From: Burkholderiales bacterium
GTDB taxonomy: Bacteria > Pseudomonadota > Gammaproteobacteria > Burkholderiales > Eutrophovitaceae
Assembly (NCBI GenBank): GCA_040880425.1
Contig: JBBDIL010000003.1
Span: forward strand, 9,225-73,224
Direction: 5' to 3'
Length of the DNA stretch: 64,000 bases
Within the stretch, counting starts at the first letter, position 1, and each line of letters begins with the position of its first letter. Of the stretch, positions 17,544 to 32,777 are shown one piece after another. The position numbers and the translations under genes were made by a program. A model generated the notes under the pieces. That model was not told the DNA's origin, made no database searches, and worked only from the letters and a program-made list of their open reading frames with translations.

Positions 17544-17557
17544 TTGATTCGGGTCAA
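17544..17557. promoter_or_regulatory. FNR/Dnr-type box TTGATTCGGGTCAA upstream of the hemerythrin operon
   Basis: TTGAT-N4-GTCAA, centred about 58 bp upstream of the hemerythrin ATG. Confidence 0.5.
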
Positions 17558-18531: not shown

Positions 18532-18591
18532 CCGCGCCTCATCGCGTCGAGAGACGGGAAAGCCGCGTGCTCCGATTTGCCGGCCACACGA

Positions 18592-19698
18592 TCAGACGAT
18601 CTGCACAGCATGCTCGCCGATCTGACCACGCAGGGCGGGCTCTGTCGCCCGGACCGAAGCGGCTGCCGCGCGCAACTCGTGCATTGCCCAGATGACTGCG
18701 CTCAGCAGCAGCACTGCACCGCCTTGGTGTGCTACAGCCAGCGGAACCGGAACCACCAGCAGCAGCGTCGCGACGCCGAGTGCGATCTGTATTGCAAGCG
18801 CAGCCGCCAATGCATGCACCGCAATGCGTGCGCCGCGCGGCATGCCGACGCGCTGTGCGGTCAGCCAGAATCCCGCCACTAACGCCATCAGCAGCCAGGC
18901 AATCATGCGATGGGTGAATTGCACCGTCGTCATGTTGTTGAAGAAGTTCAGCCACGACGGATCGAGCATTAGCATCCCGGGTGGCAGGAAATGCCCGTTC
19001 ATCAGCGGAAACGTGTTGTAGGCATAGCCGGCGCGGATGCCCGCGACCAGCGCCCCGCTCAGCGCCATGACGAAGATCAGCACGGCGAGGCTACCCGCAT
19101 AACCCGAGAGTCTGAGCAGTGCGCCGCTGCCGGCGGCGCGTGCGGGCCGCAGCAAATCAAGCGCGACCCACAACATCCAGCCATAGATCACAAGTGCGAG
19201 CCCGAAATGCGCAGTCAGACGCAGATGACTGACGCGCGGATTGTCCACCAGACCGCTCTTGACCATGTACCAACCCATCGCACCCTGCAAGGCGCCCAGC
19301 ACGAAGATGCCGCCGAGCTGCCAGCGCAGCGCGCCGCGAATCTCGCCGCGTACGAGAAACCATACGAAGGGAACAAGGAAAGCCAGGCCGATCGCACGCC
19401 CGAGCAGCCGGTGGAAGTATTCCCACCAGAAAATGCCCTTGAACTCCGCCAGCGACATGCCCTTGTTCACCTGAAGATACTCGGGCGTCTGCCGGTACTT
19501 CTCGAAGAGAACATCCCAGTCGTTCTGGCTGAGCGGCGGAATGGTTCCAACGATCGGTTGCCATTCCACGATCGAAAGGCCGGATTGCGTAAGGCGAGTC
19601 GCACCGCCTACCACCACCATCGCGAATACCAGCAGGCAGCAGGCGAACAGCCAAATCATGACATTGCGCTGTGCGGCATCGGCAACATTCTCGCGCAT
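18592..19698 (-). CDS. ctaA: haem A synthase (COX15/CtaA, proteobacterial type)
   Basis: '[44 protein letters not shown]...[17 protein letters not shown]' canonical COX15 N-terminus. Confidence 0.85.
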
Positions 19699-19780: not shown

Positions 19781-19794
19781 TTGATGCGAATCAA
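19781..19794. promoter_or_regulatory. FNR/Dnr-type box TTGATGCGAATCAA in the divergent ctaA / oxidase intergenic region
   Basis: Perfect TTGAT-N4-ATCAA palindrome; about 89 bp from the ctaA start and about 100 bp from the 61-aa ORF start. Confidence 0.65.
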
Positions 19795-19886: not shown

Positions 19887-20072
19887 ATGGCAAACGCTGA
19901 CGATACTTCCAATGCCGGTGAGGGAACGGAAAACACAGGTGAAAAGCTGCCTGTGATGCAGCAGTTGCTCGACAACCCGTTTCTCCTGTTGTTCATCGGT
20001 GTGACCATGCCGACGGTCTTTTACATCATCTGGGGTGTGATGGAGATCGTCACCATTCCGATCGCCCAATAG
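19887..20072 (+). CDS. small single-TM protein preceding oxidase subunit II (candidate subunit IIa-like component)
   Basis: 61 aa, acidic N-terminus then one TM (FLLLFIGVTMPTVFYIIWGVMEIV); GGAG upstream; 42 nt before subunit II. Confidence 0.5.
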   Translation: MANADDTSNAGEGTENTGEKLPVMQQLLDNPFLLLFIGVTMPTVFYIIWGVMEIVTIPIAQ

Positions 20073-20114
20073 CGACGGACGCGCAAGCGGAGCGAAATAA
20101 AAGAGAGGCGAACA

Positions 20115-20660
20115 ATGAGTGCAATACTGCCGCCGAGTACCAAGGCCTGGTGGAAGCAGCCGCTGGATCGCGTGGAAGGCACCTGGATAGCGATTGCCTT
20201 CATTTGGTGCCTGATCATGTTTTTCATGATGCCGTACTGGCATGTTTTCGGAAAACAGAATCTTTCCAACGAGGCCTACCGGGTCACGCCGGAGTACTTC
20301 AGCCAGAAGACGCAGGAAATGGTCGATCAGTACACAGTCCGCACCGAGACTGATCTCCAGACACCGGTGGTACGGCCGCCCGCGGGATCCGACGTTTATC
20401 TCATTGCCCGCCTCTGGTCCTGGTGGCCGATCCTTGAACTGGAGAAGGGGCAGAGCTATCGCCTGCATCTTTCTTCCATGGACTATGTCCACTCGTTCTC
20501 CCTGCAGCCGGAGAACATGAACATCCAGGTGTTTCCCGGCTACATGGGCGTCTACACGATCACGCCAACGCGGGCAGGTACCTATTCGATCGTGTGCAAC
20601 GAGTTCTGCGGCATCGGGCACCACACGATGGTGTCGAATCTTTACGTGGTCGAGAGATAA
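20115..20660 (+). CDS. haem-copper oxidase subunit II, single-TM CuA type (B-family-like)
   Basis: One N-terminal TM; CuA motif 'CNEFCGIGHHTM' with upstream His (YVHSFSL). Confidence 0.85.
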   Translation: MSAILPPSTKAWWKQPLDRVEGTWIAIAFIWCLIMFFMMPYWHVFGKQNLSNEAYRVTPEYFSQKTQEMVDQYTVRTETDLQTPVVRPPAGSDVYLIARLWSWWPILELEKGQSYRLHLSSMDYVHSFSLQPENMNIQVFPGYMGVYTITPTRAGTYSIVCNEFCGIGHHTMVSNLYVVER

Positions 20661-20673
20661 GGGAGACCGGGCA

Positions 20674-22386
20674 ATGAACAACGCTGCAAGTTACCGCATC
20701 TGTCCGGATACCGGATTGCAGTTTCACAAGTCCGCGGAACTGCTGATGAAGGCGAACGCCGTCGCAGGGGTGCTTGCGCTGCTTGTCGGTGGCATTCTTG
20801 CGCTGCTGGTAACGCTGACGCGCTGGCCCGCGGTGCGGCTGCTGCCCGCAGACCAGTTCTACCTGGTTCTGACTGCGCACGGCATCGACATGCTGATCTT
20901 CTGGATCATCTTCTTCGAGATGGCGGTCCTGTACTTCTGCTCGTCGACCCTGCTGCGCAGCCGGCTTGCCACCCCGCGCATCGCCTGGGCGGGATTCTCG
21001 CTGATGGTGATCGGCGCGATCGTCACCAACGTCGCGATCTTCCAGGGGGGATCGAGCGTGATGATGACCTCGTATGTACCGATGCCGGCAGCGCCGCATT
21101 TCTATCTCGGGCTGATCCTGTTTGCGGTCGGTGCGCTGATTGGATGCTTCGTGTTCCTCGGCACGCTGGTGGTCGCCCGCGCGGAACGCACGTACGAGGG
21201 CTCGGTACCGCTGGTGACCTTTGGCGCGCTCACCGCCGCGATCATCGCGATATTCACGATTGCGTCCGGCGCGATCATTTTGATCCCGACTTTTCTGTGG
21301 TCGGTTGGTTACATCAACCAGATTGATCCCCTGATGTACAAGACCGTGTGGTGGGCGTTCGGCCACTCTTCGCAGCAGATCAACGTTTCTGCGCACGTGG
21401 CGGTGTGGTACGCGATCGCGGCGATCGTATTCGGCGCCAAGCCCATGTCCGAGAAGGTGAGCCGCGGGGCGTTCCTGCTGTACATCCTTTTCCTGCAGCT
21501 GGCGAGCGCGCACCATCTGCTGGCCGATCCGGGCATCAGTTCCGAATGGAAGATATTCAATACCAGCTACGCCATGTATCTCGCGGTATTGGCGAGCATG
21601 GTGCACGGGCTGACCGTGCCGGGATCGATCGAAGTCGCCCAGCGGGAGAAAGGCCTGAACCGCGGTCTGTTCGAGTGGATCCGTAAAGCACCATGGGGAA
21701 ATCCGGTGTTCTCGGGGATGTTCATTTCACTCATCGGTTTCGGTTTTCTCGGCGGCATCTCCGGCGTGATGATGGGCACAGAGCAGCTCAACATCATCAT
21801 CCACAACACCATCTACGTGCCGGGGCATTTCCACGCGACCGTGGTGGTGGGCACCACGCTCGCCTTCATGGCGTTGACCTACTTTCTTATTCCGACGCTG
21901 TTCCGGCGGGAGATGATCATGCCCGGGCTGGCGAAGTGGCAGCCCTACCTGTTCGGAATCGGGATGTCGCTGTTCTCGCTGTTCATGATGGGCGCGGGCA
22001 CGCTCGGCGTCTCGCGCCGGCACTGGGACATGGCGTTCAGCGGCGCGCAAATGCCGTACGAGTATCCCGGCACCGCCTACCTGATGATGGGGTTGATGGC
22101 GCTGGCGGGTATCGCCGCCACCGTCGGTGGCGTGATCTACCTGCTGGTGACTGTCGGCTCGCTGCTCTGGGGCCGGAGGCTGGACGCGAAGGACACCTAT
22201 ACCGCGAAACTCGTGCCGCATCGACTGCCGCCGGTCGCAGCCGCGATCGAGGGCCATGGCGGCCTCGGCATCAAGGGGTTCGCCGCACCGGGTACGTTCG
22301 TATTCGCGATGGTGTTCCTTGCGGCGTTCGTCCTGTACTACTTCGTGAACTGGAAGTACCTGTCGGAAATCTGGTACATCGGGTGA
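20674..22386 (+). CDS. haem-copper oxidase subunit I, B-family-like but lacking the HPxVY cross-link tyrosine (possible NO reductase of the B-derived NOR clades)
   Basis: Collinear with ba3 subunit I as recalled (DPLMYKTVWWAFGH..., LASAHHLLADPGISSEWK, LFEWIRKAPWGNP, HNTIYVPGHFHATV); the ba3 'GHPIVY' position reads 'GHSSQQ'. Confidence 0.8.
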   Translation: MNNAASYRICPDTGLQFHKSAELLMKANAVAGVLALLVGGILALLVTLTRWPAVRLLPADQFYLVLTAHGIDMLIFWIIFFEMAVLYFCSSTLLRSRLATPRIAWAGFSLMVIGAIVTNVAIFQGGSSVMMTSYVPMPAAPHFYLGLILFAVGALIGCFVFLGTLVVARAERTYEGSVPLVTFGALTAAIIAIFTIASGAIILIPTFLWSVGYINQIDPLMYKTVWWAFGHSSQQINVSAHVAVWYAIAAIVFGAKPMSEKVSRGAFLLYILFLQLASAHHLLADPGISSEWKIFNTSYAMYLAVLASMVHGLTVPGSIEVAQREKGLNRGLFEWIRKAPWGNPVFSGMFISLIGFGFLGGISGVMMGTEQLNIIIHNTIYVPGHFHATVVVGTTLAFMALTYFLIPTLFRREMIMPGLAKWQPYLFGIGMSLFSLFMMGAGTLGVSRRHWDMAFSGAQMPYEYPGTAYLMMGLMALAGIAATVGGVIYLLVTVGSLLWGRRLDAKDTYTAKLVPHRLPPVAAAIEGHGGLGIKGFAAPGTFVFAMVFLAAFVLYYFVNWKYLSEIWYIG

Positions 22387-22390
22387 ACAC

Positions 22391-23320
22391 ATGCGCAGCC
22401 CAAACTGCGTGACTGAGATGCAGCGCCAGGAGGTGCGCGGCCCGCGGACAAAGCTCGCCGAGGATGTGCGCGCCGTCACGGGTCTGTTCAAGATGCGCAT
22501 CGGCGTCGTCATCACCTGGACTGCGCTGGCCGCGGCCGCGACGACGCCGGGACAAGGACTCCCGGCATGGAAGTTCGCCGTACTCGCGTTCTCGGTGTTC
22601 ATCGCCTCGGCTGCCGCGGGCGCACTCAACCAGTATCTCGAGCGCGACATAGACGCGCGGATGTCACGCACCCGCAACCGTCCGTTCGTCACCGGCGCCG
22701 CGGCCCACGACGGGCGCTGGGTCTGGCTGATCATGGCGCTGACGGCCGGCGCGGTGCTGGCGGCCGCGTACTCCATCAACATGCTGACTGCGCTGTACGT
22801 GTTTCTGGGAGCGTTCTTCTACGCCGTGGTGTACACGGCGTGGCTGAAACGGCGCACCTGGATGAACATCGTGATCGGCGGACTGGCCGGCAGCTTCGCC
22901 GTGCTCGCCGGCGCAGCTGCAGTAGCGCCAGGGCTGCCGATGCAGGCGCTGATCCTGGCGATCGTGCTGTTCCTGTGGACGCCGTCGCACTTCTGGAGTC
23001 TGGCAATCGCCTACCGGGAAGATTATCTGGCGGCAAAGGTGCCGATGCTGCCGGTGGTGATCGGCAACGCCCGCACCGCGCGCGTCATCCTCGCGAACAC
23101 GGTGGTCCTTGTGGCGGTGTCCCTGCTGCCGGTGTTCTACGGCAGTGGCTGGATCTACCTTGCCGGCGCCGCGGCCGGCGGCGCCTGGTTCATCCTGCGC
23201 AATATCGACCTGGTACGCCGGCCGGACGACAGGCGCACGGCAATGAGAAGTTTCTTCGCGTCGCTGGTGCAGCTCTCGCTGCTGCTCGCCGCGGCGATGA
23301 TCGACGCGGCCCTGCTTTGA
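22391..23320 (+). CDS. ctaB: protohaem IX farnesyltransferase (haem O synthase)
   Basis: UbiA-family; 'NQYLERDIDARMSRTRNRP' motif, about 8-9 TM; start may be the internal Met at 22418. Confidence 0.85.
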   Translation: MRSPNCVTEMQRQEVRGPRTKLAEDVRAVTGLFKMRIGVVITWTALAAAATTPGQGLPAWKFAVLAFSVFIASAAAGALNQYLERDIDARMSRTRNRPFVTGAAAHDGRWVWLIMALTAGAVLAAAYSINMLTALYVFLGAFFYAVVYTAWLKRRTWMNIVIGGLAGSFAVLAGAAAVAPGLPMQALILAIVLFLWTPSHFWSLAIAYREDYLAAKVPMLPVVIGNARTARVILANTVVLVAVSLLPVFYGSGWIYLAGAAAGGAWFILRNIDLVRRPDDRRTAMRSFFASLVQLSLLLAAAMIDAALL

Positions 23321-23403
23321 AGGTGCACGTTTCGGCCGCGGAAAATGCAGATTGAGGCGGGAGCAGGGTTTTCCCGCTCTCTGCGGTGCGAGTGTGGAAC
23401 GAA

Positions 23404-24219
23404 ATGACTCGAATACGTTTCCGGTGCCTGCGATGGTTCGCTGCGACCGTGGCAGCCGTCTCGTCGCTCGGCCTCATGGCAGCGACCAGCGTGCAGCCGG
23501 ATGAAACGGCCGCGCTCGAGTTCAGCCAGGGCGTCCTCGGCAAGAGGGTGCCCGACTACGCGTTTGCGACGCATGCCGGAGAATCGCGTCGTCTGCGCGA
23601 CTACCGCGGCAAACCGCTGCTGGTGACATTCGTCTATACAGCGTGTTTCCAGGCCTGCCCGGTCGGAGTGAAATTCCTCGACCAGGCCGTGGCCCAGGCG
23701 CACAAGGTGATCGGCGCAGACCGGTTTTCCGTCGCGGTCATCGGCTTCAATCAGCCTTTCGATACGCCTGAGGCAATGCGCGCGTTCGCCGTGCGTCACG
23801 GCCTGGTTGATTCCGGGTGGGATTTCGTGAGCCCCGATGCCGGATCGGTGCAGGCGTTGACGGATGATTTCGGTTTCAGCTGGTACGCGACGCCGAAAGG
23901 GTTCGATCACATCGCGCAGGTTACGCTGCTCGATGCAGAAGGGCGCGTGTATCGGCAGATCTACGGCGAGACCTTCGAGGCGCGTGAGCTGATCGAACCC
24001 ATGAGGCAGCTCATCGCCGGGACGCCCGCCCCTGCGGGAGACTGGCGTGCATTCGTCGACAAGGTGCGCCTGTTGTGCACCGTGTACGATCGCTCCAGCG
24101 GTCGCTACCGGCTCGATTATTCTCTGTTCCTGGGTATCGCGATCGGCCTGGGCATTCTCGGTGCCGTGGTCGCCAGCCTGGTGCACGAGTGGCGGCGCAA
24201 CCGGCGTCCGGCGGTCTGA
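23404..24219 (+). CDS. SCO/SenC-family copper chaperone with C-terminal TM extension
   Basis: Thioredoxin fold with 'YTACFQACP' CxxxC and downstream His (FDHIAQV); extra C-terminal TM (LFLGIAIGLGILGAVVASLV); track ORF starts at GTG 23386. Confidence 0.75.
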   Translation: MTRIRFRCLRWFAATVAAVSSLGLMAATSVQPDETAALEFSQGVLGKRVPDYAFATHAGESRRLRDYRGKPLLVTFVYTACFQACPVGVKFLDQAVAQAHKVIGADRFSVAVIGFNQPFDTPEAMRAFAVRHGLVDSGWDFVSPDAGSVQALTDDFGFSWYATPKGFDHIAQVTLLDAEGRVYRQIYGETFEARELIEPMRQLIAGTPAPAGDWRAFVDKVRLLCTVYDRSSGRYRLDYSLFLGIAIGLGILGAVVASLVHEWRRNRRPAV

Positions 24220-24309
24220 CGCGAATCACGCTGCGCAGAAAATATCCGCGTTGCGCGCGCGGCAATGCTTCGCGACTGAGCTTCACCCCGATTCCGGATC
24301 ATAGGGTGC

Positions 24310-24323
24310 TTGATGCGCATCAA
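24310..24323. promoter_or_regulatory. FNR/Dnr-type box TTGATGCGCATCAA upstream of the cytochrome b fusion / HCO-like module
   Basis: Perfect palindrome; about 134 bp upstream of the proposed GTG 24451. Confidence 0.6.
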
Positions 24324-24450: not shown

Positions 24451-26325
24451 GTGATCGCGCCTCTGCAGCGCGGCGGGCAATGGCTGTTCATGCGCGTCGA
24501 GGGCGGATTCAATCTGTTCTTCGGGCAGGCGCTCAACCCGCTCTACCACCTGGGCGCAATCACCTTCCTGCTTTTCTGGATTGCGCTTGCGAGCGGTATC
24601 TATCTATACGTGTTCTTCGACACCAGCGTAACGGGGGCGTATGACTCGGTGGCGCGCCTGACGCACGGTCAGTGGTATCTGGGCGGCGTCATGCGCAGCC
24701 TGCATCGCTATGCATCCGACGGCATGGTCATCACCATGCTGTTGCACATGGTGCGGTATTTCGTTTTCGATCGTTACCGGAACTTCCGCTGGTTCTCCTG
24801 GGTGACCGGGGTGATTCTGCTTTGGCTGGTATACGCTTCCGGCATCAACGGCTACATGCTGCCGTGGGACCGTCTCGCCCAGTTCGTGGCGACCGCAACT
24901 GCGGAGTGGATCGACTGGTTCCCCATGTTCGCGGGCGCGCTTGCTCGCAACTTCAGCTTCGAGGGATCGGTGAACGACCGGCTCTTCTCTCTGCTGGCAT
25001 TCCTGCACATCGGTATCCCGCTCGGCCTGTTGATCGCAATGTGGGTGCACACCCAGCGCGTGCCCGGCGCCAGGAGCAGTCCGCCGCCGGCGATCGCGGC
25101 GATGACCGGCGTCGCGCTGCTGGTGCTCGCGGCGGTGAAGCCGGCGGTCAGCCAGGGGCGCGCGGATCTCTCCACCGCAGTCGCGGCGGTCGGGCTCGAC
25201 TGGTTCTACCTCCCACTCTATCCGTTGATCTACGCATGGTCGCCGCGCGATGTCTGGGCGCTGGCGCTGGGCGCAACCTTGCTGCTGTTCGCGATCCCCT
25301 GGCTTGGACGCCGGCGGCGCGAGCGGCTGGCGGAGTTCAAGGCGACTTTCCGTCCGGGCAATCTTTCTGCCCCGGTGCGTGCCGGAGAGACGCTGCTGGA
25401 AGCCGGACTGCGCCAGGGCATACCGCTGCCTTACGACTGCCGCAACGGCGGCTGCGGCGTGTGCAAGGCGGATCTGCTGCAGGGCGCCGTGGACTACGGC
25501 GTGTACCAGAAGACGGCGCTATCCGACGAGGAGAAGGAAGATGGCAGTCTGCTGCTGTGTTGCGCTACCCCGCTATCGGATGTGGACATCGAACTGGAGA
25601 CATCGCGCGAGCACACCGCCACGGTGGTGGACATGCAGCAGCTTGCGCCGGATGTCATGCTGCTCAGGCTAAGGCCCAACAGGCCGGTTTCGTACGTGGC
25701 AGGTCAGTACATCAACATCGTGCTGGAGAACGGCGATACCCGCAGCTTTTCCTTTGCGACCGCGCCTGGCGCGGGTGAACTGATCGAACTGCATGTGCGC
25801 CTGATTCCGGGCGGCAGGTTTACCACGCATGTCTTCACGCGCATGTGCGAAGGCGACCGGCTGCGTTTCCGCGGGCCGTTTGGCGCTTTCACGTTGCAGG
25901 AGGACAGTCCGAGACCGATTATCTTTGTGGCGGGCGCTACCGGATTTGCGCCGGTGAAGAGCATGCTCGAGTACGCGTTCGAGCATGGCATCCGCCGCCC
26001 CATGGTGCTGTACTGGGGTGTGCGCTCGCGTAAAGACCTGTACATGGCGGAAATGCCGGAGTGCTGGGCGCGCGAGCACCAGAATTTCAGCTTTGTGCCG
26101 GTGCTGTCCGAACCGCAGCCGGAAGATGAGTGGACCGGAAGGACCGGCATGGTGCACGAAGCAATACTCGAGGACTTCCCTACGTTGCAGGGCTACGAGC
26201 TGTACGCCTGCGGGTCGATGCAGATGGTGGAGTCCGCGCATCCGGAGTTCATCGCGCAGGGGCTGTCCGAGGATGCCTGTTTCTCCGATGCCTTCACCCA
26301 CGCAGCGCAGGGATCACCGGCATGA
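24451..26325 (+). CDS. fusion protein: di-haem cytochrome b (bc1/b6 N-terminal type) + plant-type [2Fe-2S] ferredoxin + FNR-like FAD/NAD(P)H reductase
   Basis: His pairs 14 residues apart in two helices (SLHRYASDGMVITMLLH; FLHIGIPLGLLIAMWVH), 'NGYMLPWD'; 'CRNGGCGVCK...LLCC'; 'RSFSFA', 'GPFG', 'GATGFAPVKSM'. Start moved to GTG 24451 (GGAG upstream; N-terminus aligns with the paralog; an FNR box sits at the track start 24310). Confidence 0.8.
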   Translation: MIAPLQRGGQWLFMRVEGGFNLFFGQALNPLYHLGAITFLLFWIALASGIYLYVFFDTSVTGAYDSVARLTHGQWYLGGVMRSLHRYASDGMVITMLLHMVRYFVFDRYRNFRWFSWVTGVILLWLVYASGINGYMLPWDRLAQFVATATAEWIDWFPMFAGALARNFSFEGSVNDRLFSLLAFLHIGIPLGLLIAMWVHTQRVPGARSSPPPAIAAMTGVALLVLAAVKPAVSQGRADLSTAVAAVGLDWFYLPLYPLIYAWSPRDVWALALGATLLLFAIPWLGRRRRERLAEFKATFRPGNLSAPVRAGETLLEAGLRQGIPLPYDCRNGGCGVCKADLLQGAVDYGVYQKTALSDEEKEDGSLLLCCATPLSDVDIELETSREHTATVVDMQQLAPDVMLLRLRPNRPVSYVAGQYINIVLENGDTRSFSFATAPGAGELIELHVRLIPGGRFTTHVFTRMCEGDRLRFRGPFGAFTLQEDSPRPIIFVAGATGFAPVKSMLEYAFEHGIRRPMVLYWGVRSRKDLYMAEMPECWAREHQNFSFVPVLSEPQPEDEWTGRTGMVHEAILEDFPTLQGYELYACGSMQMVESAHPEFIAQGLSEDACFSDAFTHAAQGSPA

Positions 26326-26873
26326 ACACGCGAGCCGCATCCAGCGTGACCGTGCGCTACATTGGCCAGGCGCTGCTGTATGGACTGTTTGTCACGGCCA
26401 TCGGCTATTTTTCGACTTCGCCGGAGTACACGCATCTTCGGCCGCGAGAGGCGCTGATGAAGGTCTCCTTCACGCATGCCGCACAGCGGGTCGGAGATTG
26501 CCGCATGCGCACCGATGAGGAACTCGCTCGCATGCCGCCGAACATGCGCATCCGTGAAGACTGCCCGCGCGAGCGCGCGCCGGTGACGATCGAGGTCGCT
26601 CTGGACGGACAGATGCACTTCCGCGAAGTGCTTAACCCGACCGGTTTGGCGCGCGACGGCGCGGCCTCCATGTACCGTCGCATCGTCGTCCCTGCCGGCG
26701 AGCACCATGTTGCGGCACGCCTGTCCGACCGGCGCGATGGCGCGTTCAATCATGCGAAAGAGCAGACCATTCTGCTTGCTCCGGCCGATATCCTGGTGAT
26801 TGAGTTCCATGCAACCGCCGGCGGTTTCGATTTCCTTTATCCGCTCAGGGAGGCGCAGCTTGATCGAGATTAA
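26322..26873 (+). CDS. hypothetical membrane-anchored protein (one N-terminal TM plus about 140-aa soluble domain)
   Basis: ATG 26322 overlaps the upstream stop (ATGA); TM 'IGQALLYGLFVTAIGYF'; no recognisable cofactor motif. Confidence 0.55.
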   Translation: MNTRAASSVTVRYIGQALLYGLFVTAIGYFSTSPEYTHLRPREALMKVSFTHAAQRVGDCRMRTDEELARMPPNMRIREDCPRERAPVTIEVALDGQMHFREVLNPTGLARDGAASMYRRIVVPAGEHHVAARLSDRRDGAFNHAKEQTILLAPADILVIEFHATAGGFDFLYPLREAQLDRD

Positions 26874-26930
26874 GTTTCCAGCTGTGTACCCCCTGTAGGA
26901 TGGTTTCAATGTCGGGTGGTGAACTCAATC

Positions 26931-28451
26931 ATGCTCTCGGGCATCCGGGTCTCTTTGCTGCACGGCTGGCGCGCGCTCGAGACGACGTTCGATCGAGCGT
27001 TTGGCGCACGCGACAATCCGCTGCGCCACCTGGGCGCTCTGGGTTTCTACTTCTTCTGGGTAGCGGCGGCGAGCGGGATCTACCTGTATGTGTTTTTCGA
27101 TACCAGCGTCGCCGGTGCGTACCGCAGTGTGGAGGCGCTGAGGCACCAGCCGTGGCTGATCGGCAGCGTCGCGCGCAGCCTGCATCGCTATGCTTCCGAC
27201 GGCTTCGTGGCGGTGATGTTTCTCCATCTCGTGAAGGAAACGCTGGCCGCCCACTACCGCGGATTCCGTCTGTTCTCGTGGCTTACCGGTGTGCCGCTGA
27301 TCTGGCTGGTATACGTGTCCGGAATCGGTGGCTACTGGCTGGTATGGGACCGCGTTGCGCAGTTTTCCGCTGCCGCGACGATGGAATGGCTCGACTGGCT
27401 GCCGCTTTTCGGCGAACCGCTTGCGAGAAATTTTCTGCATGCCGGCAGCGTGAGCGACCGCTTTTTCTCGTTGCTTGTGTTCGTGCACATTGGCGTGCCG
27501 CTGCTGCTGCTGCTCGGCATGTGGGTGCATATCCAGCGCGTGAGCCTGGCCGACACCGCGCCGCCGCGCCGGTTGGGCTGGGGCGTGGCTGTCGCGCTGC
27601 TCGCGCTTTCACTGCTGAAACCGGCGCTCAGCGCGCCGCCCGCCCATCTCGATACCGAACCGGCGCGCGTCGCGCTCGACTGGTTCTATCTGTTCGTGCA
27701 TCCGCTGGCCTACCGGACATCCGCCGGGTTCGCCTGGGCGCTGGTGTTCGGTGCGACCCTGTTGCTCGCCGCCGCGCCGTTGTTGTCACGCGCGCGGCCC
27801 GAACCAGTGGCGAAAGTCGATCCGGAAAACTGCAACGGCTGCGGCCGCTGCGTGGCCGATTGTCCGTACGCCGCGGTACAGCTGGTGCCGCATTCGTTGA
27901 AAGGGAAGTACCGTATGCAGGCGCAGGTCGACCCGGACCTGTGCGCAGCCTGCGGCATCTGCGCCGGCGCCTGTCCGTCCTCGACACCGTTTCGCCGGAT
28001 GGAGACGCTGGTGAGCGGTATCGACATGCCTTTGCTGCCGATCGGCGTGTTACGGGGACGGCTCGATTCTGCGCTTTCCCGGCTCGTCAGCAGACCGCGC
28101 GTGGTGATTTTCGGCTGCGAATGCGCGGCGGACGTAAACACGCTTGCGGCGCCGGGCGTTGCAAGTTTCAGCCTGCCGTGTATCGGCAACCTGCCGCCTT
28201 CGTTTGTCGAGTACGCGCTGCGCAACGGCGCGGACCGCGTGCTGGTGACTGGCTGCCGCGAGGGCGACTGCGCGTACCGGTTCGGCAATCGGTGGATCGA
28301 GCAGCGATTCTCAGGGGAGCGCGAACCTCATTTGCGCCGGCATGTGGCGCGCGAGCGCGTGCGCATCGCCTGGGCGAACGCCGGCGACGAGGAACGGCTG
28401 CGTGCTCAACTGACGGAATTCTGCGAGCCCCGGGCGCGGCGTTTGTCGTGA
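26931..28451 (+). CDS. fusion protein: di-haem cytochrome b + 2x[4Fe-4S] ferredoxin + MvhD/FlpD-like domain
   Basis: Paralogous cyt b domain (SLHRYASDGFVAVMFLH; FVHIGVPLLLLLGMWVH; GGYWLVWD); 'CNGCGRCVADCP' and 'CAACGICAGACP'; 'VVIFGCECAAD...LPCIGNLPPSFVEYALRNGADRVLVTGCREGDCAYRFGNRW' FlpD/MvhD pattern; alternative GTG start 26916. Confidence 0.8.
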   Translation: MLSGIRVSLLHGWRALETTFDRAFGARDNPLRHLGALGFYFFWVAAASGIYLYVFFDTSVAGAYRSVEALRHQPWLIGSVARSLHRYASDGFVAVMFLHLVKETLAAHYRGFRLFSWLTGVPLIWLVYVSGIGGYWLVWDRVAQFSAAATMEWLDWLPLFGEPLARNFLHAGSVSDRFFSLLVFVHIGVPLLLLLGMWVHIQRVSLADTAPPRRLGWGVAVALLALSLLKPALSAPPAHLDTEPARVALDWFYLFVHPLAYRTSAGFAWALVFGATLLLAAAPLLSRARPEPVAKVDPENCNGCGRCVADCPYAAVQLVPHSLKGKYRMQAQVDPDLCAACGICAGACPSSTPFRRMETLVSGIDMPLLPIGVLRGRLDSALSRLVSRPRVVIFGCECAADVNTLAAPGVASFSLPCIGNLPPSFVEYALRNGADRVLVTGCREGDCAYRFGNRWIEQRFSGEREPHLRRHVARERVRIAWANAGDEERLRAQLTEFCEPRARRLS

Positions 28452-28467: not shown

Positions 28468-29904
28468 ATGAGATCAGGCGGTCAGGTTAACGGCACCGCA
28501 GGAACTTTCGGCCACCGTCTCGTGCTGCCGGCCCTGCCGCAGGTGCTCTATACGCTTGATGTGCCGCGGGATGCGCGCGCACGGCTGGCGCTGAACTGGA
28601 TCGTTCTCGGTCTGGTAGCGTTGATCGGAGCAGGCGTGTTTTCGGCCCTGCTGGTGGCATCGCGCACCCCCTTCGTGCAGAGCGTGTTTCCGCTGGTGGA
28701 CTTCTTCCGGGTTGCGCTGGTGGTGCATGTGGACCTTTCCGTGCTGGTCTGGTTTCTGGCGTTTGCCGGCGCGCTTTGGAGTCTGAACAGTACCCGGCGC
28801 TGGATGCCGCTGGGCTGGACTGCGCTTGCCGCCTGCGCCCTTGCCACACTGATGATGGTGATCGCACCGTTTGTCGGTCAGCCGGTGCCCATCATGAGCA
28901 ACTACATCCCGGTGCTCGACAGCCCGCTGTTTCGATGGTCACTGGTGGTGTTCGCCGCAGGGGTGGCGGCGGTTCTGCTGCGCGGCATGGGCGCGGTCCC
29001 CAAGGTGGGTGCGCAACTGGACGGAGCCGGCGTGCTGCGTTTCGGGCTGAACGCCGCGGCGATTTCAGCGGCGGTTGCGCTGGGCGCGTTCATCTGGTCC
29101 TGGCTCGCAGTGCCGCCGGCGCTCGACGGCAAGGCCTACTACGAATTGCTGTTCTGGGGCGGCGGCCACGTGCTGCAGTTCACCTGGACGCTGCTCATGT
29201 TCGCCGCATGGCTGTGGCTCGCCGGCGAAGGCGGTTGCCCGATTCCGCTCACGCCCCGCGTGACACTGCTGCTGTTCGCCATCACGCTCGCAATCGTGTT
29301 TCTGACTCCGGTGATCTATCTTGCGCACGACGTTACTTCAGTCGAGCATCACAAGCTGTTCACCTGGCAGATGCGCTTCGGCGGCGGGCTGACAATCCTG
29401 CCGATGGCGCTCGCGGTGGTGATTGCGCTGGCGCGCGCCGCGCCGGCCCGTGCCGAGGAGAAACCGCTGCGTGCGGCGCTGATCATGTCGCTCGCTCTGT
29501 TCGCCTTTGGAGGCCTGATCGGTGTGGGCATCGACGGCTCGAATGTGAAAGTCCCGGCGCATTATCACGGCAGCATCGTCGGCGTAACACTCGCGTTCAT
29601 GGGCGTGGTCTATCTCCTGCTGCCGCGCCTGGGGTTTGCGTCCCCGCCTTCGCGCGCTGCCGCACTGCAATGCTGGCTCTACGGTGCGGGGCAGATGCTG
29701 CATATCACCGGGCTGGTGTGGTCCGGCGGCTACGGCGTGCAGCGCAAGGTCGCAGGAGCGGAGCAAGGCCTGGATGCGATCGAGAAGATTGCGGGCATGG
29801 CACTGATGGGTTTCGGCGGCCTCGTCGCCGTGATCGGAGGACTGATGTTCCTGGTGATCGTGCTGCGCGTGCTGGCGCGCGGACGTACGGGTGCGCCACG
29901 GTAG
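28468..29904 (+). CDS. orphan haem-copper-oxidase subunit I-like protein (12-TM core, no cognate subunit II)
   Basis: All six canonical HCO His present: H87 (VVHVD), H234 (GGGHVLQF), H294/H295 (VEHHK), H365/H367 (VPAHYHGSIVGVTLAF, compare VPGHFHATVVVGTTLAF in the 570-aa subunit I); Phe, not Tyr, at His234+4; GGGGGAG SD. Confidence 0.7.
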   Translation: MRSGGQVNGTAGTFGHRLVLPALPQVLYTLDVPRDARARLALNWIVLGLVALIGAGVFSALLVASRTPFVQSVFPLVDFFRVALVVHVDLSVLVWFLAFAGALWSLNSTRRWMPLGWTALAACALATLMMVIAPFVGQPVPIMSNYIPVLDSPLFRWSLVVFAAGVAAVLLRGMGAVPKVGAQLDGAGVLRFGLNAAAISAAVALGAFIWSWLAVPPALDGKAYYELLFWGGGHVLQFTWTLLMFAAWLWLAGEGGCPIPLTPRVTLLLFAITLAIVFLTPVIYLAHDVTSVEHHKLFTWQMRFGGGLTILPMALAVVIALARAAPARAEEKPLRAALIMSLALFAFGGLIGVGIDGSNVKVPAHYHGSIVGVTLAFMGVVYLLLPRLGFASPPSRAAALQCWLYGAGQMLHITGLVWSGGYGVQRKVAGAEQGLDAIEKIAGMALMGFGGLVAVIGGLMFLVIVLRVLARGRTGAPR

Positions 29905-29928
29905 CGGGCGCGGGTGCGGTGGCGTGAC

Positions 29929-30369
29929 ATGACGACGAACCCGGATCTCCCTCTGGTGTATTCCTGCTCTGGATACTCGAGCGCGGCGCAGATGGCGAAC
30001 TACCTCGCGCTCCGGCTGGATCGTATCGGTGCGGCGGAAATGTCGTGCATCGCGGGCGTGGGCGGCGCCGTGCCGCATCTGGTCCGGATCGCACGATCCG
30101 GACGACCGATCGTGGCGATCGACGGTTGCCAGCTGGTGTGCACGGCGAGCTGCCTCGGTCGGCAAGGCCTGCAGCCGGTACTGCACCGCGTCCTGTCCGA
30201 CCACGGTGTGCGCAAGCGCTATCACACCGAATTCGACGAGCGGGAAGCGCAGCGCCTGCTGTCGGAACTGCTGCCGGCGGTCGAACACGCGCGCCGCGGC
30301 GCACGGGAATTGCCGGCGCTCCCCGGCGGCGCGGGCGCAGACGGCGGCGCACCGGGCGGGCATCGGTGA
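29929..30369 (+). CDS. DGC-domain putative metal-binding protein
   Basis: 'VYSCSGYSSAAQ...', 'AIDGCQLVC' DGC motif; GTGA overlap with ubiU. Confidence 0.6.
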   Translation: MTTNPDLPLVYSCSGYSSAAQMANYLALRLDRIGAAEMSCIAGVGGAVPHLVRIARSGRPIVAIDGCQLVCTASCLGRQGLQPVLHRVLSDHGVRKRYHTEFDEREAQRLLSELLPAVEHARRGARELPALPGGAGADGGAPGGHR

Positions 30370-31379
30370 GCGGGCGCGCGCCCATCGAACTGGTCTGCCC
30401 CGCCGGCAGCCTGGCCGCGCTCAAGGCCGCGGTCGACGCCGGTGCCGACTGCGTGTATCTCGGTTTTCGCGACGACACGAACGCGCGCAACTTCAAGGGT
30501 CTGAACCTGGACGCGGCGGATCTTGCGGACGGATTGCGCTACGCGCACGCGCGCGGCCGGCGCGTGTTCGTGGCGATCAACACCTATGCGCAGGCGGGCG
30601 CCTTCGAGCGCTGGTGCCAGGCAGTCGACCGGGCGGCGCAGCTCGGTGCCGATGCGGTGATTCTGGCCGACCCTGCGCTGCTGCAGTACGCCGCTTCGGC
30701 ACAACCGGATCTGCGCCGGCACCTGTCGGTGCAGGGTTCGGCCACCACGTACGAGGCGATCAACTTCTACCGCAGACAGTTCGGCGTGTGCCGCGCTGTG
30801 CTGCCACGTGTGCTGGCGCTGCCGCAGATCGAGAAGCTGATGCAGCATGCCGAAACGGAGATCGAGGTGTTCGGCTTCGGCAGCCTGTGCGTGATGGTGG
30901 AAGGCCGCTGCGCGCTGTCGTCCTACGTCACCGGGCAGTCGCCGAATACGGCAGGCGCGTGTTCCCCGGCTGGCGCGGTACGCTGGCAGCAGACGCCGCG
31001 GGGCCTGGAATCGCGGCTCTCGGATGTGCTGATCAACTGCTATGCCGACGGCGAAAAGGCCGCGTATCCGACGCTGTGCAAGGGGCGCTATCGCGTCGAC
31101 GACGACGTCTACTACGCGATCGAGGAGCCGGCCAGCCTGAACACGCTCGCGCTGCTGCCGGAATTGCTGCGCATCGGCGTCTCGGCGATCAAGATCGAAG
31201 GCCGCCAGCGCAGCGTGGCCTATGTGGCGGAAGTCACGCGTACCTGGCGCGCGGCGATCGACGTTTGTGCCGCCGATCCCGCACGTTTCGCGCCGCGCGG
31301 CGCCTGGATGTCGCAGCTCGACCGGCTGGCCGAGGGCCAGCAGCACACGCTCGGTGCGTACCACCGGCCATGGCGGTGA
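30366..31379 (+). CDS. ubiU: U32-family protein UbiU (O2-independent ubiquinone hydroxylation)
   Basis: 'IELVCPAGSLAALKAAVDAGADCVYLGFRDDTNARNF' peptidase-U32 N-terminus, Cys cluster (CVMVEGRCALSS...C); followed by ubiV and an SCP2 gene; start set at GTG 30366. Confidence 0.75.
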   Translation: MSGRAPIELVCPAGSLAALKAAVDAGADCVYLGFRDDTNARNFKGLNLDAADLADGLRYAHARGRRVFVAINTYAQAGAFERWCQAVDRAAQLGADAVILADPALLQYAASAQPDLRRHLSVQGSATTYEAINFYRRQFGVCRAVLPRVLALPQIEKLMQHAETEIEVFGFGSLCVMVEGRCALSSYVTGQSPNTAGACSPAGAVRWQQTPRGLESRLSDVLINCYADGEKAAYPTLCKGRYRVDDDVYYAIEEPASLNTLALLPELLRIGVSAIKIEGRQRSVAYVAEVTRTWRAAIDVCAADPARFAPRGAWMSQLDRLAEGQQHTLGAYHRPWR

Positions 31380-31383
31380 CGCG

Positions 31384-32286: not shown

Positions 32287-32777
32287 GTTTCTTCCCGCTG
32301 CCGTTTCCATCGTCTCTCGTCGACGCACGGGCGATGATCTCTTCGCTTGCCGGCCTGCCGGGTTCGCTGGCGCTCGTGACTGCATTGAACGTCGCCTTCG
32401 AGAGATTTCCGGAGGGACTCGATTCTCTGGAGGGTAAGCGCGTGTGCATGCATACGACCGATCTGGGATTGCGCGCCTATCTCACACTCCGCGGCCAGGC
32501 GTTCGTGGTCTGCCACCCGGTATCGGATCCGGATGTCCTGATCCGGGCAAGTGCGGCGGACTTTTTTCGACTCGCGAGCCGAAAAGCGGACGCCGACACG
32601 CTGTTCTTCGCGCGTCGCCTGCTGATCGAAGGCGACACCGAGGCAGGACTCCTGCTGAAGAATGCGCTGGATGCGCTTGACCTGGCCCGGCTGCTGCACA
32701 ATCCGCCTGCTCTGCATCGGCTTCTGGCGGTGCTCCGCGCAAGCTTCCGCGGTCCGGCTGTCAAACCCTGGAGCTAA
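32283..32777 (+). CDS. ubiT: SCP2 domain protein UbiT (ubiquinone biosynthesis accessory factor)
   Basis: SCP2 sterol-carrier pattern ('IRASAADFFRLASRKADADTLFFARRLLIEGDTEAGLLLKNALD'); ATGA overlap with ubiV. Confidence 0.7.
   Translation: MSFFPLPFPSSLVDARAMISSLAGLPGSLALVTALNVAFERFPEGLDSLEGKRVCMHTTDLGLRAYLTLRGQAFVVCHPVSDPDVLIRASAADFFRLASRKADADTLFFARRLLIEGDTEAGLLLKNALDALDLARLLHNPPALHRLLAVLRASFRGPAVKPWS

What the first reader, a model, noticed from the sequence alone, without database searches (positions are those of the whole stretch)
24451..26325. Membrane cytochrome b fused to a ferredoxin-NAD(P)H reductase cassette
A single 624-aa ORF joins a bc1/b6-type di-haem cytochrome b domain (plus extra TMs) to a CRNGGCGVCK-type [2Fe-2S] ferredoxin. 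That is followed by an RSFSFA/GPFG/GATGFAP FNR-like module. This is the architecture of soluble oxygenase-reductase or AscD-type components, here tethered to a transmembrane haem wire. It implies direct NAD(P)H-to-membrane-haem electron transfer that bypasses the quinone pool, or a reverse quinol:NAD(P)+ link.
Basis: partly seen in the sequence, partly recalled or inferred. Interest (0 to 1): 0.7.

Follow-up and report, generated by a model that had tools for sequence, protein, structure and literature searches.

The report
Cytochrome b fused to NAD(P)H reductase
This is a real, conserved membrane protein that joins a two-haem cytochrome b to a cytoplasmic NAD(P)H-flavin-iron-sulfur reductase. 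The family was already noticed in the wastewater bacterium Accumulibacter, lies here in an oxygen-regulated respiratory gene island, and appears never to have been tested biochemically.

Summary
One 624-aa ORF (GTG 24451 to 26325) encodes a bc1/b6-type cytochrome b, a plant-type [2Fe-2S] ferredoxin domain, and FAD- and NAD-binding FNR domains. All four haem histidines are invariant. There are six transmembrane helices, and the reductase cassette is predicted to be cytoplasmic.

It is not an assembly artefact. Hundreds of same-architecture proteins exist in independent assemblies of Betaproteobacteria, including Accumulibacter, Dechloromonas/Azonexus, Denitratisoma and Ca. Nitricoxidivorans.

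It is not new as an object. It most likely matches the "unusual cytochrome b/b6" proposed for Accumulibacter in 2006. It also fits the "large proteins with cyt b domains, function unknown" subfamily of cytochrome b phylogenies.

Three points came out of the context here:
- **Constant partners.** It always travels with a paralogous cytochrome b fused to 2x[4Fe-4S]+MvhD/FlpD, and with a small periplasmic beta-sandwich protein (orfX).
- **Usual neighbourhood.** It normally sits inside a cluster for a tyrosine-less CuA haem-copper enzyme (a putative NO reductase).
- **Regulation.** Here it has its own perfect FNR-type box and is packed with ubiUVT.

Best reading (0.45): an anoxia-induced module that passes NAD(P)H electrons through FAD, [2Fe-2S] and two haems b to the periplasmic side. 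Direction and acceptor are untested.

The parts
24310..24323 (.). Perfect FNR/ANR/DNR-type palindrome TTGATGCGCATCAA, 128 nt upstream of the GTG start of the fusion gene
   Evidence: 2 perfect sites in 64 kb against 0.02 expected. Perfect boxes sit in the same position in the related loci L001, L002 and L006.
24451..26325 (+). CytbFNR: 624-aa fusion protein (cytochrome b, then [2Fe-2S] ferredoxin, then FAD, then NAD(P)H domains)
   Evidence: AF2 model: mean pLDDT 81.5, pTM 0.66.
24451..25320 (+). Cytochrome b module, residues 1-290, helices A-F. Haem ligands H85 (24703), H99 (24745), H186 (25006), H200 (25048). Qo-like motif L-D250-W251-F-Y (25198-25203).
25336..25593 (+). Plant-type [2Fe-2S] ferredoxin domain (C330, C335, C338, C370)
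25609..26256 (+). FNR-like FAD-binding barrel (residues 387-477) and NAD(P)H-binding domain (residues 490-602)
   Evidence: Best structural relatives are GcoB, BenC, T4moF, Fre and NqrF.
26322..26873 (+). orfX: 183-aa protein with an N-in membrane anchor and a periplasmic beta-sandwich carrying an invariant Cys pair. Its start overlaps the CytbFNR stop (ATGA).
   Evidence: It is fused to the C-terminus of the FeS/FlpD cytochrome b in proteins of about 690 aa.
26916..28451 (+). CytbFeSFlpD: paralogous cytochrome b (58% identical, ungapped) fused to 2x[4Fe-4S] and an MvhD/FlpD domain
28468..29904 (+). HCO2: divergent 12-TM haem-copper-superfamily subunit I. Both haem ligand sets are kept; the CuB site is degenerate across the family.
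29914..32777 (+). DGC-domain protein, UbiU, UbiV and an SCP2 protein (UbiT-like), on the same strand with gaps of 16 nt or less
   Evidence: (UbiU 542 bits, UbiV 389 bits, both above cut-off).
19781..19794 (.). Second perfect FNR-type box, TTGATGCGAATCAA, upstream of the haem-copper operon
19887..24219 (+). Small 61-aa TM subunit, CoxII (full CuA motif), CoxI (six canonical His, no active-site Tyr), CtaB and SenC/Sco
17554..19698 (-). Two CtaA (haem A synthase) paralogues, divergent from the operon
   Evidence: The same arrangement is seen in L083.

Best explanation
CytbFNR is a membrane-integral NAD(P)H dehydrogenase module, probably induced under anoxia.

**Proposed electron path.**
- NAD(P)H is oxidised in the cytoplasm on the FNR-like FAD domain.
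- Electrons pass one at a time to the fused [2Fe-2S] ferredoxin domain.
- They then go to the cytoplasm-side haem (ligands H99/H200), then to the periplasm-side haem (ligands H85/H186).
- They leave at the periplasmic face. The acceptor there is either a quinone bound in the conserved Qo-like pocket or a partner protein.

**Proposed assembly.** The protein does not act alone. It works with its paralogue CytbFeSFlpD and with orfX, possibly as a cytochrome b heterodimer. In most genomes this trio is an accessory electron branch of a tyrosine-less CuA haem-copper enzyme (a putative NO reductase) and of a second divergent haem-copper protein.

**Shown:** domain order, ligands, topology, synteny and the FNR-type boxes.

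**Inferred:** cofactor occupancy, direction of electron flow, the acceptor and complex formation.
For: **(1) The anatomy fits a wire from cytoplasmic NAD(P)H to the periplasmic face.**
- The four haem His are invariant and match b6 ligands.
- There are six TM helices with a positive cluster after helix F, so the reductase cassette is cytoplasmic.
- All Fer2, FAD and NAD motifs are invariant.

**(2) The closest relatives of the cassette are NAD(P)H-oxidising injectors.**
- Sequence and fold relatives are GcoB, BenC, T4moF, CarAd, MmoC, Fre and NqrF.
- All of these oxidise NAD(P)H and inject single electrons into a metal centre (established knowledge).

**(3) A second NADPH-oxidising module is fused to the same cytochrome b clade.**
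- P0144 carries flavodoxin + FAD_binding_1 + NAD_binding_1, the cytochrome-P450-reductase/CysJ type.
- This points to selection for NAD(P)H input into this cytochrome b.

**(4) Electron movement from inside to outside is favoured by the membrane potential** (inference).

**(5) Regulation and packing point to anoxic use.**
- There are two perfect FNR-type boxes against 0.02 expected. One lies directly upstream of this gene and is conserved in close relatives.
- The gene is packed with the O2-independent ubiquinone genes ubiU, ubiV and ubiT.

**(6) Synteny ties it to its partners.**
- Every one of the 51 CytbFNR loci with enough flank also has CytbFeSFlpD and orfX.
- 38 of the 51 have the CoxI gene of the haem-copper cluster.
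- orfX overlaps the CytbFNR stop codon (ATGA).

**(7) The cluster is used under anoxic NO respiration.** In Ca. Nitricoxidivorans the cluster's CoxB and CoxA are transcribed and detected as protein in an anoxic NO-respiring culture (PMC10390337).
Against: - No experiment exists for any member of the family.
- FNR-type flavoproteins are reversible in principle.
- The conserved Qo-like pocket, with no recognisable Qi residues and no Rieske gene in the cluster, is what a quinol-oxidising cytochrome b would also show.
- Quinone reduction on the periplasmic side by NAD(P)H would dissipate proton-motive force. That looks wasteful for a respiratory enzyme.
- Accumulibacter keeps only the trio CytbFeSFlpD-orfX-CytbFNR, with no haem-copper gene nearby. 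A haem-copper enzyme therefore cannot be the obligatory acceptor.
- No periplasmic redox centre was found. orfX has no known redox fold.
Confidence: 0.45

Rival explanations
1. Quinol-based electron bifurcation that makes NAD(P)H. Quinol is oxidised in the Qo-like pocket. One electron goes to a high-potential periplasmic acceptor, for example the CuA domain of the neighbouring haem-copper enzyme in place of a Rieske cluster. The other goes through the periplasm-side haem, the cytoplasm-side haem, [2Fe-2S] and FAD to NAD(P)+. This is an energetically repaired form of the 2006 Accumulibacter proposal.
For: - The Qo signature is conserved: LPWD, and invariant D250-W251 in the PEWY position.
- No Qi-type His/Asp follows H200 (sequence).
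- There is no Rieske or cytochrome c gene in any of the 83 clusters.
- CoxII has an intact CuA site but no donor is encoded nearby.
- Ca. Nitricoxidivorans is reported to lack bc1, b6f and ACIII, yet it has this cluster and expresses its oxidase genes (PMC10390337).
- The literature proposes quinol reoxidation by an 'unusual cytochrome b/b6' in Accumulibacter (PMC9041414).
- Anammox Rieske/cyt b complexes with NAD(P) oxidoreductase subunits are a precedent for the idea (PMC5600118).
Against: - All characterised relatives of the cassette, and the CPR-like sister fusion, run from NAD(P)H outwards.
- The Accumulibacter locus has no high-potential partner nearby.
- Electrons would move against the membrane potential and against about 0.4 V of redox gap. 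The mechanism therefore needs strict coupling, for which no structural element was found.
- orfX shows no redox fold.
Confidence: 0.2
2. A plain cytoplasm-side NAD(P)H:quinone oxidoreductase. Electrons go from FAD to [2Fe-2S] to the cytoplasm-side haem, then to a quinone bound on the cytoplasmic face. This would resemble FNR/ferredoxin feeding the n-side of b6f. The outer haem and the Qo-like pocket would be evolutionary leftovers or would serve only dimer cross-talk.
For: - NqrF-like cassette.
- FNR is known to bind b6f (cited in PMC5600118).
- ubiUVT lies in the same operon.
Against: - bc1 Qi residues are absent. TQRVP follows H200, and there is no CxGG haem-cn motif.
- The outer-haem ligands and the Qo-like motif are invariant. 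That argues they are used.
Confidence: 0.1
3. Artificial fusion created by a frameshift or misassembly of a cytochrome b gene and a separate reductase gene.
For: None found.
Against: - The ORF is continuous and has coding-type GC3 (0.79) throughout.
- An identical protein comes from an independent assembly, and all 240 listed hits of two searches share the full architecture.
- The junction is confidently modelled as helix F followed by the Fer2 domain.
Confidence: 0.01

Closest known systems
The 'novel/unusual cytochrome b/b6' of Candidatus Accumulibacter phosphatis (Garcia Martin et al. 2006; cited in PMC9041414, PMC2289847, PMC6593511)
   Same: Ca. Accumulibacter aalborgensis has a 637-aa member with the identical five-domain architecture (P0441). 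It is 69% identical to the Rhodocyclaceae member L042, which in turn is 57% identical to the window protein. From my own memory of the 2006 paper, the protein was described as cytochrome b/b6 fused to ferredoxin, flavin and NAD(P) binding domains and was proposed to act as a quinol:NAD(P)+ reductase.
   Different: The papers I could read do not give the domain composition. I could not confirm whether 'the' cytochrome meant this protein or its neighbour CytbFeSFlpD (L081 has both). The Accumulibacter locus lacks the haem-copper genes that flank the window gene. The proposed pmf-driven quinol-to-NAD(P)+ direction is not compatible with a periplasm-side quinol site unless bifurcation is added (inference).
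[quoted passage not shown] 2017, PMC5600118)
   Same: - Same fold, and the same four His at 14-residue spacing.
- LPW(D/G)Q cd-loop motif, and a PEWY-like ef-loop motif.
- Best PDB sequence matches are cytochromes b6, at E 2e-19.
   Different: - No Rieske, cytochrome c1/f or subunit IV gene is present.
- The protein is truncated after helix F.
- There is no CxGG (haem cn) motif and there are no Qi residues.
- The motif reads LDWFY instead of PEWY.
- The C-terminus continues into a soluble reductase.
- Whether subfamily H contains exactly this family was not checked.
Fer2-FAD-NAD reductases of oxygenase systems and NqrF (GcoB 5OGX, BenC 1KRH, T4moF 4WQM, CarAd 7C3A, MmoC, Fre 1QFJ, NqrF)
   Same: Same domain order and motifs. 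Sequence E-values run from 3e-51 to 4e-26, and Foldseek E-values from 1e-26 to 1e-18.
   Different: All NCBIfam equivalog scores are below cut-off. The acceptor is a fused membrane cytochrome b rather than a separate oxygenase or the Nqr membrane subunits.
NADPH oxidase / ferric reductase family (NOX, SpNOX) and the Fre-MsrQ pair
   Same: Same logic: cytoplasmic NAD(P)H, then flavin, then two stacked haems b, then the outside (own knowledge). SpNOX appears only as a weak whole-chain Foldseek match (rank 48).
   Different: The transmembrane fold is unrelated, and no PF01794 ferric-reductase domain was hit. NOX has no iron-sulfur relay. This is convergence, not membership.
Membrane di-haem cytochromes b joined to cytoplasmic FeS modules in anaerobes (QmoC, HdrE/D, DsrMK, NarI/H), and the anammox Rieske/cyt b complexes with NAD(P) oxidoreductase subunits
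   Same: A cytochrome b links the quinone pool to a cytoplasmic redox module. The neighbour CytbFeSFlpD matches the HdrA2 C-terminal FeS+MvhD part. Anammox complexes are cited in PMC5600118.
   Different: Those use NarI-type or separate subunits, whereas here a bc-type cytochrome b is fused directly. None has been shown to carry an FNR cassette.

Membership tests
bc1/b6f-type cytochrome b (PF00033/PF13631) | Four-helix bundle with two His pairs ligating two haems b | tested here: met
   Pfam E 3e-20 and 4e-15, both above gathering scores. H85/H99/H186/H200 are invariant and align to the b6 ligands.
bc1/b6f-type cytochrome b (PF00033/PF13631) | Qo-site PEWY motif in the ef loop and LPWGQ-type cd loop | tested here: inconclusive
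   LPWD 137-140 is invariant. The ef loop reads L-D-W-F-Y-L-P-x-Y with D250 and W251 invariant. This is a variant motif, and its function was not tested.
bc1/b6f-type cytochrome bc complex | Partner Rieske iron-sulfur protein and cytochrome c1/f encoded with it | tested here: not met
   No Rieske or cytochrome c gene was found among the neighbours in the window or in the related loci. Partners encoded elsewhere in the genome cannot be excluded.
b6f-type cytochrome b6 | CxGG motif binding haem cn | tested here: not met
   The aligned position is YHLGA rather than YCLGG.
Fer2-FAD-NAD class reductases (BenC/MmoC/GcoB/NqrF type) | Cx4Cx2C...C cluster motif, RxYS-type FAD motif, GxTGxAP NAD motif and a C-terminal CG motif | tested here: met
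   C330, C335, C338, C370, R431, S434, G495-P501 and C587-G588 are invariant. Pfam Fer2, FAD_binding_6 and NAD_binding_1 are all above cut-off.
Named equivalogs Fre, BenC, MmoC, AntC, NqrF (NCBIfam) | Whole-protein score above the curated cut-off | tested here: not met
   Scores against cut-offs: Fre 192.5 vs 230, BenC 185.9 vs 430, MmoC 183.2 vs 500, AntC 170.4 vs 402, NqrF 117.5 vs 295.
CytbFNR family (Accumulibacter-type cytochrome b-ferredoxin-FNR fusion) | Single polypeptide carrying Cytochrome_B + Fer2 + FAD_binding_6 + NAD_binding_1, full-length alignable | tested here: met
   55-77% identity over 96-100% of the length to the full-length members aligned. Only one 50%-identity cluster in 1.84 billion representatives matches end to end.
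CytbFNR family (Accumulibacter-type cytochrome b-ferredoxin-FNR fusion) | Encoded next to CytbFeSFlpD and orfX | tested here: met
   This holds in the window and in every related locus with enough flank.
NADPH oxidase / ferric reductase (NOX/FRE) | Six-TM ferric-reductase domain (PF01794) with two His pairs on helices 3 and 5 | tested here: not met
   No such Pfam hit. The TM domain is a bc-type cytochrome b.
Any of the above | Bound haem b, FAD and [2Fe-2S]; NAD(P)H-dependent haem reduction | not testable with these tools
   This needs expression and spectroscopy.

The most novel reading that the evidence does not exclude
CytbFNR, CytbFeSFlpD and orfX form a Rieske-less, cytochrome-c1-less heterodimeric cytochrome b complex.
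- It oxidises ubiquinol in conserved Qo-type pockets.
- It sends one electron to a high-potential periplasmic acceptor. The candidates are the CuA domain of the adjacent tyrosine-less haem-copper NO reductase, or c-type cytochromes.
- It sends the other electron inward to NAD(P)+ and to the FeS/MvhD module.

This would be a new kind of complex III that makes NAD(P)H during denitrification. It would also be the 'missing' quinol oxidase of organisms such as Ca. Nitricoxidivorans perseverans, which is reported to lack bc1, b6f and ACIII.
Probability: 0.12. Interest if true: 0.85.

Novelty: new member of a known kind. Interest (0 to 1): 0.5.

Why it matters
The family is widespread in Betaproteobacteria that dominate wastewater treatment and denitrification: Accumulibacter, Dechloromonas/Azonexus, Rhodoferax, Ideonella and Ca. 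Nitricoxidivorans. It has been invoked since 2006 to explain anaerobic redox balancing in phosphorus-removing sludge, but I found no biochemical test of it.

The context found here changes the question. The protein is one third of a conserved trio. That trio is usually embedded in an FNR-type-regulated cluster for a putative NO reductase and for O2-independent ubiquinone synthesis.

If the module feeds NAD(P)H electrons to the periplasmic side, it is a bacterial bc-fold counterpart of NADPH oxidases. If it runs as a bifurcating quinol oxidase, it would be a new type of complex III, with consequences for N2O budgets and for energy-yield models of denitrifiers.

Either outcome is directly testable in cultured carriers.

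Tried and rejected
**(1) HCO2 as the dedicated partner of CytbFNR.**
- In most Burkholderiales the two genes are 12-60 nt apart, which suggested a pair.
- Rejected as obligatory: Ca. Nitricoxidivorans and Accumulibacter have CytbFNR with no adjacent HCO2.

**(2) The cluster as the norSY-senC-orf1 (sNOR) cluster of ammonia oxidisers, with orf1 being the cytochrome b fusion.**
- Rejected: orf1/CbaD is described as a six-TM protein encoded by a 570-nt gene (PMC3475470).
- The window CoxI has Gln, not the reported Asn, four residues after the CuB histidine.
- I could not assign CoxI to the eNOR or sNOR family. The papers held give no residue signatures.

**(3) orfX as a Rieske or cupredoxin substitute.**
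- C58 and C79 are invariant, and H50 is near-invariant; M73 is invariant in the 51-sequence alignment A2 and present in 72 of 80 locus-derived orthologues.
- Not supported: the confident AF2 model (pLDDT 92.9) has no PDB match better than E 1e-3 and none to a redox fold.

**(4) NADH versus NADPH specificity.** The residues after the GV(R) strand are variable across the family, so no call could be made.

**(5) Fer2-to-haem distance.** Model coordinates were not exposed, so it was not measured.

**(6) Literature searches for the original Accumulibacter description.**
- Several searches were unproductive.
- He and McMahon 2011 and the 2006 paper are not held.

**(7) Sigma-70 promoter and terminator scans** around 24150-24500 and 32700-33200 gave nothing useful.
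Full report
**Observation**

The + strand carries an uninterrupted ORF from 24310 to 26325.

Pfam finds four domains in order:
- a bc1/b6-type cytochrome b (PF00033, E 3e-20; PF13631, E 4e-15);
- a plant-type 2Fe-2S ferredoxin domain (E 8e-16);
- an FNR-like FAD-binding barrel (E 2.5e-11);
- an NAD-binding domain (E 5e-22).

- A GGAG lies 6 nt upstream.
- The N-termini of 56 homologues align with it position for position.
- The 'TTG ATG' that opens the longer ORF at 24310 is a perfect FNR-type palindrome, not coding sequence.

The product is 624 aa.

**Is it real?**

- The frame has coding-type composition throughout (GC3 0.79).
- An identical protein exists in an independent assembly, and all 120 listed hits of the first search carry the same five Pfam domains at 59-87% identity and 85-100% coverage.
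- A second search, seeded from a Rhodocyclaceae member, found 2931 proteins at E <= 1e-50. All 120 listed share the architecture. They include proteins named from Dechloromonas, Azonexus, Zoogloeaceae, Denitratisoma sp. DHT3, Ca. Nitricoxidivorans perseverans and Ca. Accumulibacter aalborgensis.
- In a library of 1.84 billion 50%-identity representatives, only one cluster matches end to end. Pairwise identity within the family never falls below 55%.

The fusion is therefore genuine. It arose once and is young. It is largely confined to Betaproteobacteria, with stray members such as a Rudaea MAG.

**Anatomy**

*Haems.* H85, H99, H186 and H200 are invariant. They align with the histidines of spinach cytochrome b6 that, by my own knowledge of b6 numbering, are ligands H86/H100/H187/H202. 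Both pairs are spaced 14 residues apart, as in bc1.

*What is absent.* The b6 Cys that binds haem cn is His here. The bc1 Qi residues are absent after H200 (sequence).

*P-side pocket.* The periplasmic side keeps the cd-loop motif LPWD (137-140, invariant). It also keeps an ef-loop motif L-D250-W251-F-Y-L-P-x-Y, which lines up with PEWYxLPFY of bc1. D250 and W251 are invariant.

*Topology.*
- Hydropathy, the positive-inside rule and the AF2 model (mean pLDDT 81.5, pTM 0.66) give six helices, A to F.
- The N-terminus is cytoplasmic, and an RRRRER cluster follows helix F.
- The Fer2, FAD and NAD domains are therefore cytoplasmic.

*Reductase cassette.*
- Its ligand and nucleotide motifs are invariant.
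- Its nearest solved relatives are GcoB, BenC, T4moF, CarAd, Fre and NqrF.
- It falls below every NCBIfam equivalog cut-off. It resembles those enzymes but is not one of them.

**Context**

The gene is part of a long same-strand array with gaps of 65 nt or less, apart from one 231-nt gap. In order:
1. a perfect FNR-type box (19781-19794);
2. a 61-aa single-TM ORF;
3. CoxII, with a full CuA motif;
4. CoxI, with all six canonical His but Gln instead of the cross-linked Tyr;
5. CtaB;
6. SenC;
7. the 231-nt gap, which holds the second perfect box (24310-24323);
8. CytbFNR;
9. orfX, whose start overlaps the CytbFNR stop (ATGA);
10. CytbFeSFlpD;
11. HCO2;
12. a DGC-domain protein;
13. UbiU, UbiV and an SCP2 (UbiT-like) protein.

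Two perfect boxes are found where 0.02 are expected. Two CtaA genes and a hemerythrin protein lie divergently upstream. An nrdD gene with a one-mismatch box lies downstream. The region looks like an oxygen-regulated respiratory island.

**Comparative genomics**

I compared 80 species-level genome loci and 3 further loci.

| Arrangement | Where found |
|---|---|
| CoxII-CoxI-(CtaB)-SenC-CytbFeSFlpD-orfX (the most widespread core) | Alpha-, Beta- and Gammaproteobacteria |
| Core followed by HCO2-CytbFNR | Most Burkholderiales |
| CytbFNR-orfX-CytbFeSFlpD-HCO2 | The window and its closest relatives |
| Core followed directly by CytbFNR, with no adjacent HCO2 | Ca. Nitricoxidivorans |
| Only CytbFeSFlpD-orfX-CytbFNR, away from any haem-copper gene | Ca. 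Accumulibacter aalborgensis |

- Every CytbFNR locus with enough flank has CytbFeSFlpD and orfX.
- The two cytochrome b modules in the window are 58% identical without a gap.
- In some genomes orfX is fused to the C-terminus of CytbFeSFlpD.
- The same cytochrome b clade is also found fused to a flavodoxin-FAD-NAD cassette of the cytochrome-P450-reductase type (P0144).
- UbiU and UbiV recur within 10 kb of the cluster in at least nine loci from two classes.
- FNR-type boxes recur upstream of coxII (14 of 50 loci). They also recur upstream of CytbFNR in the window-type arrangement.

**Partners**

*orfX.*
- It has no Pfam family, and all homologues are 'hypothetical'.
- Its AF2 model is very confident (pLDDT 92.9): an N-in membrane helix followed by a beta-sandwich.
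- It has no PDB match better than E 1e-3 and none to a cupredoxin or Rieske fold.
- It carries an invariant Cys pair, consistent with a periplasmic disulfide.

*HCO2.* It keeps the ligands of both haems (H87, H365, H367) and one CuB ligand (H234). The helix-VII HH pair is H/Y plus R/A in most orthologues. Its chemistry is unknown.

**Literature**

- Accumulibacter is repeatedly said to possess an 'unusual' or 'novel' cytochrome b/b6. This protein is proposed to let succinate dehydrogenase run forward anaerobically by reoxidising quinol (PMC9041414, PMC2289847, PMC6593511, all citing Garcia Martin et al. 2006).
- From memory, that paper described a cytochrome b/b6 fused to ferredoxin, flavin and NAD(P) binding domains, also present in Dechloromonas and Rubrivivax. 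This matches the taxonomic spread found here. I could not read the paper itself.
[quoted passage not shown] They also note cytochromes b associated with NAD(P)-binding FeS oxidoreductases in anammox bacteria (PMC5600118).
- Tyrosine-less CuA haem-copper enzymes are proposed or shown to be NO reductases. eNOR occurs in many Accumulibacter strains, and its operons often contain CtaA (PMC11214002).
- Ca. Nitricoxidivorans is reported to lack bc1, b6f and ACIII.
- Its CoxB and CoxA, which I map to this cluster by gene length and order (OHM77_13135/13130), are transcribed. They are also detected as protein in an anoxic NO-respiring culture.

**Mechanism**

*What is shown:* a cytoplasmic NAD(P)H/FAD/[2Fe-2S] cassette is covalently tied to a two-haem transmembrane wire, and that wire keeps a periplasm-side quinone-pocket signature.

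*What is inferred:* direction and acceptor.

I favour NAD(P)H as the donor (confidence 0.45), for four reasons:
- Every characterised relative of the cassette injects NAD(P)H electrons into a metal centre.
- A second NADPH-oxidising cassette, the diflavin type, has been fused to the same cytochrome b clade.
- Outward electron movement is helped by the membrane potential (inference).
- The gene carries an FNR-type box, which suggests an anoxic promoter.

The acceptor is either quinone in the Qo-like pocket or a partner in the trio or the haem-copper assembly.

The main rival (0.2) is a Qo-type bifurcation that reduces NAD(P)+.
- A simple pmf-driven quinol:NAD(P)+ reductase is not tenable. Electrons would travel from the positive to the negative side, which costs energy rather than supplying it.
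- Coupling to a very high-potential acceptor, such as an NO reductase, could pay for it.
- The conserved Qo motif, the missing Qi and Rieske elements, and the Nitricoxidivorans case keep this reading alive.

A cytoplasm-side NAD(P)H:quinone reductase (0.1) fits poorly with the invariant outer haem and pocket. An assembly artefact is excluded for practical purposes.

**Verdict**

- The object is a new member of a known but biochemically untested family.
- Its interest lies in the unresolved mechanism and in the partnership defined here: the trio with CytbFeSFlpD and orfX, embedded in an FNR-type-regulated cluster that also encodes a putative NO reductase and ubiUVT.
- That partnership gives clear experiments.
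- Interest 0.5.

Noticed in passing
28468-29904 (+): HCO2 is a 478-aa, 12-TM haem-copper-superfamily protein with only a weak COX1 hit (E 9e-11). Across 63 orthologues both haem ligand sets and one CuB His are invariant, but the helix-VII HH pair is mostly H/Y + R/A. Q237 is invariant. It has no cupredoxin subunit of its own and its chemistry is unknown.
   Followed up: partly
26322-26873 (+): orfX belongs to a family with no Pfam model. It is a membrane-anchored periplasmic beta-sandwich (AF2 pLDDT 92.9) with no PDB fold match below E 1e-3 and an invariant Cys pair. Its start overlaps the CytbFNR stop (ATGA), and in some genomes it is fused to the C-terminus of CytbFeSFlpD.
   Followed up: yes
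26916-28451 (+): A second cytochrome b fusion: the same cytochrome b module (58% identical) joined to two [4Fe-4S] motifs and an MvhD/FlpD domain. It is more widespread than CytbFNR. Together with orfX it is the constant companion of the CoxII-CoxI-CtaB-SenC cluster in Alpha-, Beta- and Gammaproteobacteria.
   Followed up: partly
protein P0144 (from; not in the window): The same cytochrome b clade is fused to flavodoxin + FAD_binding_1 + NAD_binding_1 (cytochrome-P450-reductase/CysJ type, 827 aa). This is a separate fusion of an NADPH-oxidising module.
   Followed up: partly
29914-32777 (+): DGC-domain protein, UbiU, UbiV and an SCP2 (UbiT-like) protein follow HCO2 with gaps of 16 nt or less. 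UbiU and UbiV lie within 10 kb of the cluster in at least nine other loci from two proteobacterial classes. This suggests a functional tie between O2-independent ubiquinone synthesis and these cytochromes b.
   Followed up: partly
19781-19794, 24310-24323, 26860-26873, 37554-37567, 57234-57247: There are two perfect and several one-mismatch TTGAT-N4-ATCAA boxes in intergenic positions: upstream of the haem-copper operon, CytbFNR, CytbFeSFlpD, nrdD and another gene pair. With up to 2 mismatches there are 26 matches against 11.7 expected; with none, 2 against 0.02.
   Followed up: partly
20674-22386 (+) and 20115-20660 (+): CoxI has all six canonical metal-ligand His but Gln (Q235) where oxygen reductases have the cross-linked Tyr. 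CoxII has a complete CuA motif. CtaB lies in the operon and two CtaA genes are divergent upstream. This looks like an eNOR/sNOR-type putative NO reductase, but the family could not be assigned.
   Followed up: partly
L083 (Ca. Nitricoxidivorans perseverans CP107246.1, 2573671-2595584): This NO-respiring organism, reported to lack bc1, b6f and ACIII, carries CoxII-CoxI-CtaB-SenC-CytbFeSFlpD-orfX-CytbFNR next to a Crp/Fnr regulator, two CtaA genes and the norCB cluster. The published tables list the cluster's CoxB and CoxA as expressed but do not mention the cytochrome b fusions.
   Followed up: partly
37672-41760 (+): An anaerobic ribonucleotide reductase NrdD and a B12-binding radical-SAM protein with DUF4070 lie downstream. 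This reinforces the anaerobic character of the region.
   Followed up: no
14945-16809 (-) and 14377-14868 (+): ORFs with coding-like composition but no Pfam hit lie upstream of the hemerythrin and CtaA genes.
   Followed up: no
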